From the NCBI RefSeq assembly GCF_013122565.1, contig NZ_CP053258.1: a stretch of 64,000 nt of DNA; one strand, given 5' to 3'. The notes under the pieces are model-generated. The model saw only the letters and a program-made list of their open reading frames with translations. It had not been told where the DNA came from and searched no databases. The translations under genes were made by a program, and so were the position numbers. This document shows positions 44,388 to 45,605 of this stretch, piece by piece. The stretch comes from Escherichia coli. GTDB taxonomy: Bacteria > Pseudomonadota > Gammaproteobacteria > Enterobacterales > Enterobacteriaceae. The first letter of the stretch is position 1; each line of letters begins with the position of its first letter.

Positions 44388-45605
44388 ATGACGGAACAAG
44401 AAAAAACCTCCGCCGTGGTTGAAGAGACCAGGGAGGCCGTGGACACCACGTCACAACCTGTCGCAACAGAAAAAAAGAGTAAGAACAATACCGCATTGAT
44501 TCTCAGCGCGGTGGCTATCGCTATTGCTCTGGCGGCGGGCGTCGGTTTGTATGGCTGGGGTAAACAACAGGCCGTCAATCAGACCGCCACCAGCGATGCC
44601 CTGGCTAACCAACTGACGGCATTGCAAAAAGCCCAGGAGAGCCAAAAAGCCGAGCTGGAAGGCATTATCAAGCAACAGGCTACGCAGCTTGAACAGGCGA
44701 ATCGTCAGCAAGAAACGCTGGCAAAACAGTTGGATGAAGTCCAACAAAAGGTCGCCACCATTTCCGGCAGCGATGCTAAAACCTGGCTGCTGGCTCAGGC
44801 CGATTTTCTGGTGAAACTCGCAGGACGGAAGCTGTGGAGCGATCAAGACGTCACGACCGCTGCAGCGTTGCTGAAAAGTGCAGATGCCAGCCTGGCGGAT
44901 ATGAATGACCCGAGTCTGATTACCGTTCGTCGGGCAATTACCGATGATATCGCCAGCCTTTCTGCGGTATCGCAGGTGGATTATGACGGCATCATCCTTA
45001 AGCTGAATCAGCTTTCTAATCAGGTAGATAACCTGCGTCTGGCCGATAATGACAGCGATGGTTCGCCGATGGATTCCGACGGTGAAGAACTTTCCAGTTC
45101 CATCAGCGAATGGCGTATCAATCTGCAAAAAAGCTGGCAGAACTTTATGGACAACTTCATTACGATTCGCCGTCGTGATGATACCGCCGTACCGCTGTTA
45201 GCGCCAAATCAGGATATCTATCTGCGCGAAAATATTCGCTCTCGCCTGCTGGTCGCTGCACAAGCTGTACCGCGTCATCAGGAAGAGACTTATCGCCAGG
45301 CGCTGGAGAACGTCTCCACCTGGGTACGTGCTTACTACGATACTGATGATGCCACCACCAAAGCATTCCTCGACGAGGTGGACCAGTTAAGCCAGCAAAA
45401 TATCTCGATGGATCTTCCGGAAACCCTGCAAAGCCAGGCGATGCTGGAAAAACTGATGCAGACTCGCGTGCGTAACCTGCTGGCACAACCGGCAGCGGAG
45501 ACAACGGAAGCTAAACCTGCACCTGCACCTGCACCTGCACCTGCACCTGCACCTGCACCTGCACCGCAAGCTGATACTCCGGCAGCCGCGCCGCAAGGAG
45601 AATAA
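44388..45605 (+). CDS. hemX: HemX membrane protein
   Basis: 405 aa, single TM then coiled-coil; C-terminal (Pro-Ala)n tract. Confidence 0.9.
45525..45572 (+). repeat. Hexanucleotide tandem repeat (cctgca)n within hemX, encoding (Pro-Ala)n
   Basis: About eight perfect tandem cctgca units are visible in the sequence. Confidence 0.85.

What the first reader, a model, noticed from the sequence alone, without database searches (positions are those of the whole stretch)
45525..45572. Expandable hexanucleotide repeat (cctgca)n inside hemX
About eight perfect tandem copies of cctgca encode a (Pro-Ala)n linker near the HemX C-terminus. Perfect in-frame hexamer arrays are prone to slipped-strand copy-number change, so HemX length is likely polymorphic between strains. 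This ORF is 405 aa and I recall the K-12 protein as shorter, but I cannot verify that. The reverse-frame ORF 45387..45596 (CRCRCR...) is an artefact of the same repeat.
Basis: seen in the sequence. Interest (0 to 1): 0.35.

Follow-up and report, generated by a model that had tools for sequence, protein, structure and literature searches.

The report
Known variable repeat in hemX (CVN014)
The eight-copy six-base repeat near the end of the E. coli hemX gene is real and its copy number differs between strains (2 to 16 copies), but it is the typing marker CVN014, which has been used for years, so the finding is correct and ordinary.

Summary
Eight perfect cctgca units lie at window 45516..45563, 9 nt upstream of the coordinates given. 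They are in frame in hemX (44388..45605, 405 aa) and encode (Pro-Ala)8, 13 residues from the C-terminus.

Sixteen fetched E. coli loci carry perfect arrays of 2 to 16 units, giving HemX of 393 aa (K-12) to 421 aa. Two systematic samples of 5,425 complete genomes give 14 length classes and a diversity of about 0.885. Five O157-lineage genomes have no SNP in 2,546 flanking bases yet carry 5, 6, 8, 11 and 12 units.

None of this is new. The published primers for the generic E. coli MLVA locus CVN014 flank the array. The non-repeat part of the in-silico amplicon is exactly the 111 bp of the published size formula, which gives allele 8. The literature calls CVN014 the most polymorphic locus of that scheme.

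The repeat lies outside the Pfam HemX domain, in the only hypervariable stretch of the protein. That stretch is a low-complexity tail, short or absent in many family members and deleted in one E. coli strain.

The most likely mechanism is replication slippage of an in-frame hexamer with little or no fitness effect. The antisense CRCR ORF is an artefact.

The parts
45516..45563 (+). Perfect tandem array (cctgca)x8, encoding (Pro-Ala)8 = HemX residues 377-392. This is the variable part of VNTR locus CVN014.
   Evidence: Units counted. Arrays in other strains occupy the same position with 2-16 units.
44388..45605 (+). hemX coding sequence, 405 aa. Pfam HemX domain PF04375 covers residues 130-363.
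   Evidence: E 3.9e-108. RefSeq annotation of the homologous loci. Polymorphic sites fall 13/9/74 at codon positions 1/2/3.
45492..45590 (+). Codons 369-401: the only hypervariable stretch of the C-terminal part of HemX. It is an Ala/Pro-rich tail that contains the array.
   Evidence: In the alignment of 21 enterobacterial HemX proteins the sequence is invariant up to P368 and again at P402-E405. Tails listed.
45492..45511 (+). Binding site of published primer CVN014-R (GCAGCRGGGACAACGGAAGC), with 1 mismatch at 45499.
   Evidence: Primer from PMC8143711 Table 1. Mapped.
45627..45650 (-). Binding site of published primer CVN014-F (TCCCCGCAATCAGCAAMACAAAGA), with 0 mismatches. It lies inside the start of hemY.
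   Evidence: The amplicon 45492..45650 is 159 bp, and 159-48 = 111 equals the published offset.
45595..45600 (+). AAGGAG Shine-Dalgarno sequence of hemY, inside the last hemX codons (..Q G E stop). This probably explains why the terminal PQGE is invariant.
   Evidence: Sequence. Invariant P402-E405. The link between the two is an inference.
45608..46804 (+). hemY (398 aa, HemY_N plus TPR). It starts 2 nt after the hemX stop codon and 45 nt after the array.
45387..45596 (-). Antisense ORF (TTG start, 69 aa, RCRCRC...). It is a by-product of the repeat, not a gene.
   Evidence: No Pfam hit. Variation follows the hemX frame and the ORF is cut to 40 aa in O145 RM8988-C1.

Best explanation
This is an in-frame hexanucleotide VNTR, the published E. 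coli MLVA locus CVN014, at the 3' end of hemX. Copy number changes by gain or loss of whole cctgca units, most likely through slipped-strand mispairing during replication. The perfect identity of the units would favour this, and possibly also their internal TGCA palindromes, which let the single strand fold back on itself. Because the unit is two codons long, every allele keeps the reading frame. Each change only lengthens or shortens a (Pro-Ala)n stretch in the non-conserved, low-complexity C-terminal tail of HemX, downstream of the HemX domain and 13 residues from the end. The length change is probably neutral or nearly so, so the array drifts quickly and independently in each lineage. That is why it works as a high-resolution typing marker. 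Shown here: the array, its frame, its position outside the domain, its copy-number variation in whole units on otherwise identical backgrounds, and its identity with CVN014. Inferred: slippage as the mechanism, the periplasmic location of the tail, and near-neutrality.
For: Array and frame.

Identity with CVN014: primers from PMC8143711 map at 45492..45511 (+) and 45627..45650 (-). The amplicon is 159 bp, and its non-repeat part (24+87 = 111 bp) equals the offset in the published formula (PS-111)/6, giving allele 8.

Variation in whole units: 14 of 16 fetched loci have perfect arrays of 2, 3, 3, 5, 5, 6, 7, 8, 9, 10, 11, 12, 13 and 16 units at the same position. Match spans in two 60-row systematic samples of 5,425 genomes differ in 6-bp steps. 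The combined tally is n=2:19, 3:7, 4:8, 5:19, 6:17, 7:11, 8:16, 9:8, 10:2, 11:4, 12:3, 13:2, 14:1, 16:1.

Speed relative to point mutation: five O157-lineage genomes have 0 SNPs in 2,546 flanking bases but 5, 6, 8, 11 and 12 units. K-12 (2 units) and Z1323CEC0013 (13 units) differ by 1 SNP.

Literature: CVN014 is 'the most variable locus' (PMC3877011). Its Nei diversity is 0.83 with a range of 4-15 (PMC3519732). ST131 isolates carry alleles 2-11 (PMC3407997). O157 hexamer VNTRs mutate at 4e-5 to 2e-3 per generation by whole units (PMC3777172).

Tail is dispensable: the Pfam domain ends at residue 363. The tail is the only hypervariable segment. Salmonella and Citrobacter tails differ in sequence and length. 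In 129 diverse family representatives the tail has a median of 15 aa and 46% have 10 aa or fewer. NCTC11023 has lost the array altogether.

Hairpin potential: -8.6 and -10.4 kcal/mol for the two DNA strands of 8 units.
Against: Nothing contradicts this explanation, but neutrality is not demonstrated. No phenotype data exist for different alleles. The allele distribution (peaks at 2, 5-6 and 8; few above 12) could reflect either mutation dynamics or weak selection. The AlphaFold model was too poor (mean pLDDT 44) to show independently that the tail is disordered. Copy numbers in the two 60-row samples are inferred from match length. One '4-unit' length class member turned out to be 2 units plus a 12-bp duplication.
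Confidence: 0.9

Rival explanations
1. The repeat is a selected tuning device. The (Pro-Ala)n stretch would act as a semi-rigid spacer whose length sets how far the HemX C-terminus reaches in the periplasm, and lineages would adapt by changing copy number.
For: X-Pro repeats form extended, stiff segments in other envelope proteins (own knowledge: TonB, OmpA hinge). An Ala/Pro-rich tail of some kind is kept in Escherichia, Citrobacter and Salmonella, and the last four residues are invariant. The array is also present in E. whittamii (6 units) and Escherichia sp. E1V33 (7 units).
Against: Only 13 residues and no domain follow the repeat. The invariant PQGE overlaps the hemY Shine-Dalgarno sequence, which explains its conservation without any protein function. 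One strain lacks the array entirely. Nearly half of the family representatives have almost no tail. Copy number differs widely on identical backgrounds, as expected for drift. hemX itself is dispensable (Keio deletion used in PMC12282077).
Confidence: 0.06
2. Copy number modulates expression of the downstream gene hemY by changing mRNA structure or translational coupling at the hemX stop / hemY start junction.
For: The array ends 31 nt before the hemY Shine-Dalgarno sequence, and hemY starts 2 nt after the hemX stop. The RNA array is predicted to be about 60% base-paired.
Against: In partition-function folding of 100 nt + array + 100 nt, the mean unpaired probability of the SD..AUG segment is 0.17 for every n from 0 to 20. 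The array pairs with itself, not with the junction. No terminator-like or Rfam element overlaps the array.
Confidence: 0.03
3. The antisense ORF 45387..45596 is a real gene that encodes a Cys-Arg repeat peptide, and the repeat varies that product.
For: The ORF is open in 15 of 16 sequences examined and changes length with the array.
Against: It has a TTG start with no Shine-Dalgarno-like sequence upstream and no Pfam hit. Polymorphic sites follow the hemX frame: 13/9/74 over hemX and 4/3/8 within the ORF footprint. A stop codon shortens it to 40 aa in O145 RM8988-C1.
Confidence: 0.01

Closest known systems
CVN014, a locus of the generic E. coli MLVA scheme (Lindstedt et al. 2007; GECM-7/GECM-10)
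   Same: It is the same locus. The published primers flank the array. The unit is 6 bp and the 111-bp non-repeat offset matches exactly. It has high diversity and varies within clones such as ST131, as seen here in complete genomes.
   Different: Nothing differs in kind. The window's allele is 8 by the in-silico formula. The window carries one mismatch (A at 45499) in the CVN014-R primer site. None of the open-access papers read here names hemX as the host gene of CVN014.
Hexanucleotide VNTRs of the E. coli O157:H7 MLVA schemes (VNTR-3, -9, -17, -19, -25, -37; O157-10)
   Same: They have 6-bp units, are mostly inside ORFs, change by whole units, and were measured at 4e-5 to 2e-3 mutations per generation in passage experiments (PMC3777172). 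The hemX array also varies within O157:H7 (5, 5, 6, 11, 12 and 13 units).
   Different: They are different loci. The host ORFs of the PulseNet loci are Z0268, Z5865, Z3935/6, Z5935, Z3274 and L7083, and none of their 16 primers matches the window.
Simple-sequence contingency (phase-variable) loci of Haemophilus, Neisseria and Campylobacter
   Same: The mutational engine is the same: slippage in a perfect short tandem repeat (own knowledge).
   Different: Those repeats switch genes on and off by frameshift or promoter spacing. Here the unit is two codons, so every allele stays in frame and only the tail length changes.
Ala/Pro- or X-Pro-rich extended segments of envelope and multi-enzyme proteins (TonB, OmpA hinge, E2 lipoyl-domain linkers)
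   Same: An alternating X-Pro composition, expected to be extended and unstructured (own knowledge; the sequence is).
   Different: Those segments connect two folded domains. The HemX stretch is followed by only 13 residues, so it is a tail and not an inter-domain linker.
HemX family (Pfam PF04375), described as a distant Mic60 homologue lacking the mitofilin domain
   Same: The host protein is a typical member (E 3.9e-108) in the hemC-hemD-hemX-hemY context. The Mic60 link is stated in bioRxiv 10.1101/2022.06.14.496148.
   Different: The repeat is not part of the family signature. It lies after the domain, in a tail that many members lack.

Membership tests
VNTR locus CVN014 (generic E. coli MLVA) | The published primer pair binds in convergent orientation on either side of the array | tested here: met
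   Primers from PMC8143711 Table 1. They hit at 45492..45511 (+, 1 mismatch) and 45627..45650 (-, 0 mismatches), each a unique site in the window with 0 matches in shuffles.
VNTR locus CVN014 (generic E. coli MLVA) | 6-bp unit and 111-bp non-repeat offset, as in the published size formula (PS-111)/6 | tested here: met
   The amplicon is 159 bp. Minus the 48-bp array this leaves 111 bp, giving allele 8.
VNTR locus CVN014 (generic E. coli MLVA) | Copy number varies between strains in whole units, between conserved flanks | tested here: met
   Perfect arrays of 2-16 units in the fetched loci. Match spans differ in 6-bp steps in 118 sampled genomes. No flanking SNPs among five O157-lineage genomes with 5-12 units.
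VNTR locus CVN014 (generic E. coli MLVA) | Highest diversity of the scheme (published Nei index 0.83) | tested here: met
   The 118 span-inferred alleles give 1 - sum(p^2) of about 0.885. The other loci of the scheme were not measured here.
Phase-variable contingency locus | A copy-number change shifts the reading frame or alters promoter spacing, so that expression switches on and off | tested here: not met
   The unit is 6 bp and lies inside the ORF. All 16 alleles give a full-length HemX ending in APQGE.
HemX family (Pfam PF04375) | Match to the family profile above the gathering threshold | tested here: met
   360.9 bits against a cut-off of 25.9, residues 130-363.
HemX family (Pfam PF04375) | Single N-terminal membrane anchor with the bulk of the protein beyond it | tested here: inconclusive
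   A hydrophobic stretch [22 protein letters not shown] at residues 36-57, preceded by KKSK, is visible in the sequence. AlphaFold places a helix at 34-51, but the model is of low confidence. No topology predictor was available.
Uroporphyrinogen-III C-methyltransferase (product name in RefSeq) | A SAM-dependent tetrapyrrole methylase domain | tested here: not met
   The Pfam scan gives only PF04375 above its cut-off and no methyltransferase family. The name is inherited from early literature (Sasarman 1988, cited).
Inter-domain Pro-Ala rigid linker | The repeat joins two folded domains | tested here: not met
   Only 13 residues ([13 protein letters not shown]) follow the repeat, and no domain is detected there.

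The most novel reading that the evidence does not exclude
The (Pro-Ala)n length is not neutral. It would set the reach or stiffness of the periplasmic C-terminus of HemX, a Mic60-like inner-membrane protein of unknown function, so the VNTR would act as a heritable, rapidly adjustable tuning knob for an envelope or heme-related trait.
Probability: 0.05. Interest if true: 0.4.

Novelty: already known. Interest (0 to 1): 0.1.

Why it matters
It matters little as a discovery. The locus has been a routine E. coli typing marker since 2007, and its hypervariability is documented.

The practical points are minor. HemX has no single correct length: 384-421 aa were seen here, and one 90%-identity cluster holds 4,199 distinct sequences. 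Gene-by-gene typing and annotation comparisons should therefore expect length variants. The array is a convenient in-silico marker in complete genomes. The open-access typing papers read here do not say that the marker sits in hemX, which this analysis makes explicit.

Only if repeat length affected HemX function would the locus become biologically interesting.

Tried and rejected
1. Literature searches for hemX together with 'tandem repeat' or 'VNTR' gave only an unrelated Salmonella SNP table. The link to CVN014 came from recalling the primer sequences, which I then verified.

2. A whole-word search for the six rotations of the repeat motif returned E-box and restriction-site papers only.

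3. I tested whether the locus is one of the eight PulseNet O157 VNTRs. The host ORFs differ and none of the 16 primers matches the window, so I rejected this.

4. AlphaFold2 on a 21-sequence alignment gave mean pLDDT 44. That is too poor for a fold search or for using pLDDT as a disorder measure, so only the coil assignment of residues 366-405 is noted.

5. The exact-sequence look-up of the window's HemX found nothing, so the source strain could not be named.

6. The gapped DNA pattern scanned over one genome per species found only two loci, E. whittamii and Escherichia sp. E1V33. Flank polymorphism and the 11-unit ceiling of the pattern probably excluded the rest, so the species distribution is incomplete.

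7. I considered exact allele counts for all 5,425 genomes through identity bands and dropped the idea, because flank SNPs and 6-bp gaps fall into the same bands. I used two systematic 60-row samples instead.

8. Two attempts to obtain a review on X-Pro rigid linkers failed. That comparison therefore rests on my own knowledge.

Full report
**Observation.** The sequence shows gctaaa followed by eight perfect cctgca units and then ccgcaagctgat. Tandem Repeats Finder reports one array at 45515..45565: period 6, 8.5 copies, 100% matches, no indels, score 102. Counted as cctgca, the units occupy 45516..45563. The finding's coordinates (45525..45572) have the right length but are 9 nt too far downstream. 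A three-unit probe hits only inside the array and matched none of 100 dinucleotide-preserving shuffles. No other period-6 array exists in the window. The array begins at codon 377 of the ATG-initiated ORF 44388..45605 (405 aa), whose C-terminus reads ...AAETTEAK(PA)8[13 protein letters not shown]. The antisense ORF 45387..45596 (TTG start, 69 aa, RCRCRC...) exists as a mechanical ORF.

**What the gene is.** The ORF matches Pfam HemX (PF04375) at E 3.9e-108 over residues 130-363. The next ORF (45608..46804) is HemY (HemY_N plus TPR). Upstream lie ORFs that correspond to hemC and hemD. RefSeq annotates the homologous loci as hemD-hemX-hemY. The repeat (residues 377-392) therefore lies after the family domain. 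In an alignment of 21 enterobacterial HemX proteins every column is invariant or nearly so up to P368 and again at P402-E405. Residues 369-401 are the only hypervariable stretch at this end. The invariant QGE codons contain the AAGGAG Shine-Dalgarno sequence of hemY (45595..45600, 7 nt before the ATG at 45608). This probably explains their conservation (inference).

**Is copy number polymorphic?** A 241-bp query across the array matched 5,425 of 5,426 complete E. coli genomes. In 60 rows taken at even steps down the ranking, the matched span differs in 6-bp steps from 205 bp (K-12 and derivatives) to 289 bp. I fetched 16 of these loci and counted units. Fourteen have perfect arrays at the same position:
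- 2 units: K-12, HemX 393 aa
- 3 units: two strains
- 5 units: O157:H7 F7349 and O25:H4 strain 18044
- 6 units: O157:H7 SS TX 754-1
- 7, 8, 9 and 10 units: one strain each
- 11 units: O157:H7 7386WT
- 12 units: O157:H7 Z1811
- 13 units: one strain
- 16 units: SC476, HemX 421 aa

The two exceptions are informative:
- GDSC2227PM has 2 units plus a 12-bp duplication of ccgcaagctgca.
- NCTC11023 has lost the array and 15 further bases between two cc dinucleotides. Its HemX has 384 aa and ends [10 protein letters not shown].

A second systematic sample, taken with the K-12 allele as query, agrees with the first. The two samples combined give span-inferred alleles of n=2:19, 3:7, 4:8, 5:19, 6:17, 7:11, 8:16, 9:8, 10:2, 11:4, 12:3, 13:2, 14:1 and 16:1 (118 genomes). 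This corresponds to 1 - sum(p^2) of about 0.885. The window's allele (8) is held by roughly one genome in seven or eight.

**Speed of change.** Five O157-lineage genomes show no SNP across 2,546 flanking bases, yet they carry 5, 6, 8, 11 and 12 units. K-12 (2 units) and a chicken isolate (13 units) differ by a single flanking SNP. Further O157:H7 genomes in the second sample have 5 and 13 units. All K-12-derived laboratory strains sampled keep 2 units. This fits the published observation that short alleles are more stable. All arrays are perfect, as expected when slippage turns units over faster than point mutations accumulate (inference). One metagenomic protein has an interrupted array, PAPAPAPTPAPAPAP (P0001).

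**It is a known locus.** I recalled that the primers of locus CVN014 from Lindstedt's generic E. coli MLVA resemble the flanks, and I checked this. PMC8143711 Table 1 lists CVN014-F as TCCCCGCAATCAGCAAMACAAAGA and CVN014-R as GCAGCRGGGACAACGGAAGC, with the size formula (PS-111)/6.
- CVN014-R maps at 45492..45511 (+) with 1 mismatch.
- CVN014-F maps at 45627..45650 (-) with no mismatch.
- The amplicon is 159 bp. Its non-repeat part (24+87 bp) is exactly 111 bp, so the window carries allele 8.

Published work describes the locus as follows:
- It is the most polymorphic locus in non-O157 STEC, with 9 alleles, a range of 4-15 and a Nei index of 0.83 (PMC3519732).
- It is the most variable locus in Swedish ESBL producers (PMC5217547).
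- It varies from 2 to 11 within ST131 (PMC3407997).

The locus is not one of the eight PulseNet O157 loci. Their host ORFs differ and none of their primers matches the window. None of the open-access papers I read names hemX as the host gene.

**How it most likely works.** The mechanism I commit to is replication slippage in a perfect hexamer array. This is the established explanation for VNTR behaviour. Passage experiments on other O157 hexamer loci support it: changes involve whole units, at 4e-5 to 2e-3 per generation (PMC3777172). Each unit contains the palindrome TGCA, and the single strands of eight units can fold into imperfect hairpins of -8.6 and -10.4 kcal/mol. This may stabilise slipped intermediates (inference).

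Because the unit is two codons, no allele breaks the frame. The locus therefore cannot act as an on/off phase-variation switch. The protein consequence is a longer or shorter Pro-Ala stretch in a tail that seems dispensable, for four reasons:
- One E. coli strain lacks the array.
- Salmonella has no PA run, and Citrobacter species have their own variants, including 394/397/400-aa forms of C. sedlakii HemX that differ by AAP units.
- Among 129 diverse family representatives the tail after the domain has a median of 15 residues. In 46% of them it is 10 residues or fewer. Where it is longer, it is unconserved low-complexity sequence.
- hemX itself is non-essential (Keio deletion used in PMC12282077).

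I therefore judge the length variation to be neutral or nearly so. This is an inference, not a measurement.

**Rivals.**
1. A functional 'ruler' role for the Pro-Ala stretch cannot be excluded. However, only 13 residues and no domain follow the stretch, and alleles differ widely on identical backgrounds.
2. An effect on hemY translation was tested in silico. With 100 nt of flank on each side, the unpaired probability of the SD..AUG segment is 0.17 for every n from 0 to 20. The RNA array pairs with itself. No Rfam family or terminator-like site overlaps the array.
3. The antisense ORF is an artefact. Polymorphic sites in hemX fall 13/9/74 at codon positions 1/2/3 of the hemX frame and 4/3/8 within the ORF's footprint. 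The ORF is cut to 40 aa in O145 RM8988-C1. It has a TTG start without a Shine-Dalgarno sequence and no Pfam match.
4. An assembly artefact is excluded. Thousands of complete genomes agree, and a PCR assay has been in use for many years.

**Wider distribution.** A gapped pattern scan of one genome per species found the same array in E. whittamii (6 units) and Escherichia sp. E1V33 (7 units). The array is therefore not confined to E. coli sensu stricto. The scan was limited by flank polymorphism and a ceiling of 11 units. The 90%-identity protein cluster around E. coli HemX holds 4,199 distinct sequences, including one labelled E. marmotae.

**Structure.** AlphaFold2 on a shallow alignment gave a poor model (mean pLDDT 44). 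It predicts an all-helical protein with a helix at 34-51, a long helix at 69-123 and coil from 366 to the end. I do not rely on it.

**Verdict.** The feature is already known as CVN014. Interest is low.

Noticed in passing
window 44388..45605 (hemX): RefSeq names the product 'uroporphyrinogen-III C-methyltransferase' in every fetched genome. Pfam finds only the HemX family domain and no methyltransferase domain, so the name looks like a legacy misannotation.
   Followed up: partly
window 45499: An A (Gly371Glu, GGG to GAG) lies inside the CVN014-R primer site. None of the 15 fetched E. coli loci has it, and the best of 5,425 genomes is 99.6% identical over 241 bp, which is exactly this one difference.
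   Followed up: partly
window 41000..49000: The best match among 5,426 complete E. coli genomes is only 97.3% over 8 kb. The exact HemX sequence is absent from a 15-billion-protein collection. The window seems to come from an Escherichia lineage not represented in the complete-genome set. Its origin was not identified.
   Followed up: partly
window 47443..47649 (-): A full-length GlmZ sRNA (Rfam RF00083, 218 bits) lies downstream of hemY.
   Followed up: no
window 46845..47444 (+): A 199-aa ORF with no Pfam match starts 41 nt after hemY and ends at the 3' end of glmZ. The ST131 strain 18044 has a 'hypothetical protein' annotated at the same position.
   Followed up: partly
L003 1255..1335 (E. 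coli NCTC11023): The whole array and 15 further bases are deleted between two 'cc' dinucleotides, giving a 384-aa HemX that ends [10 protein letters not shown]. This is a natural zero-repeat allele.
   Followed up: yes
L014 about 1297..1330 (E. coli GDSC2227PM): A 12-bp duplication (ccgcaagctgca) lies next to a 2-unit array. The locus therefore mimics a 4-unit allele by length, a possible source of miscalls in fragment-size typing.
   Followed up: yes
proteins P0012, P0008, P0007 (Citrobacter sedlakii HemX): Forms of 394, 397 and 400 aa differ by one or two AAP units in the same C-terminal tail. This suggests an independent 9-bp repeat polymorphism in Citrobacter.
   Followed up: no
hit H145, NZ_CP044293.1 (E. 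coli P276M): hemY is annotated only as an N-terminal-domain fragment and the match covers 79% of the query, so the hemX-hemY junction or hemY may be disrupted in this strain.
   Followed up: no
window 3020..3206: A 98-bp unit is present in 1.9 tandem copies (84% matches) with GC-rich palindromic content. It looks like a REP/BIME-type intergenic repeat.
   Followed up: no
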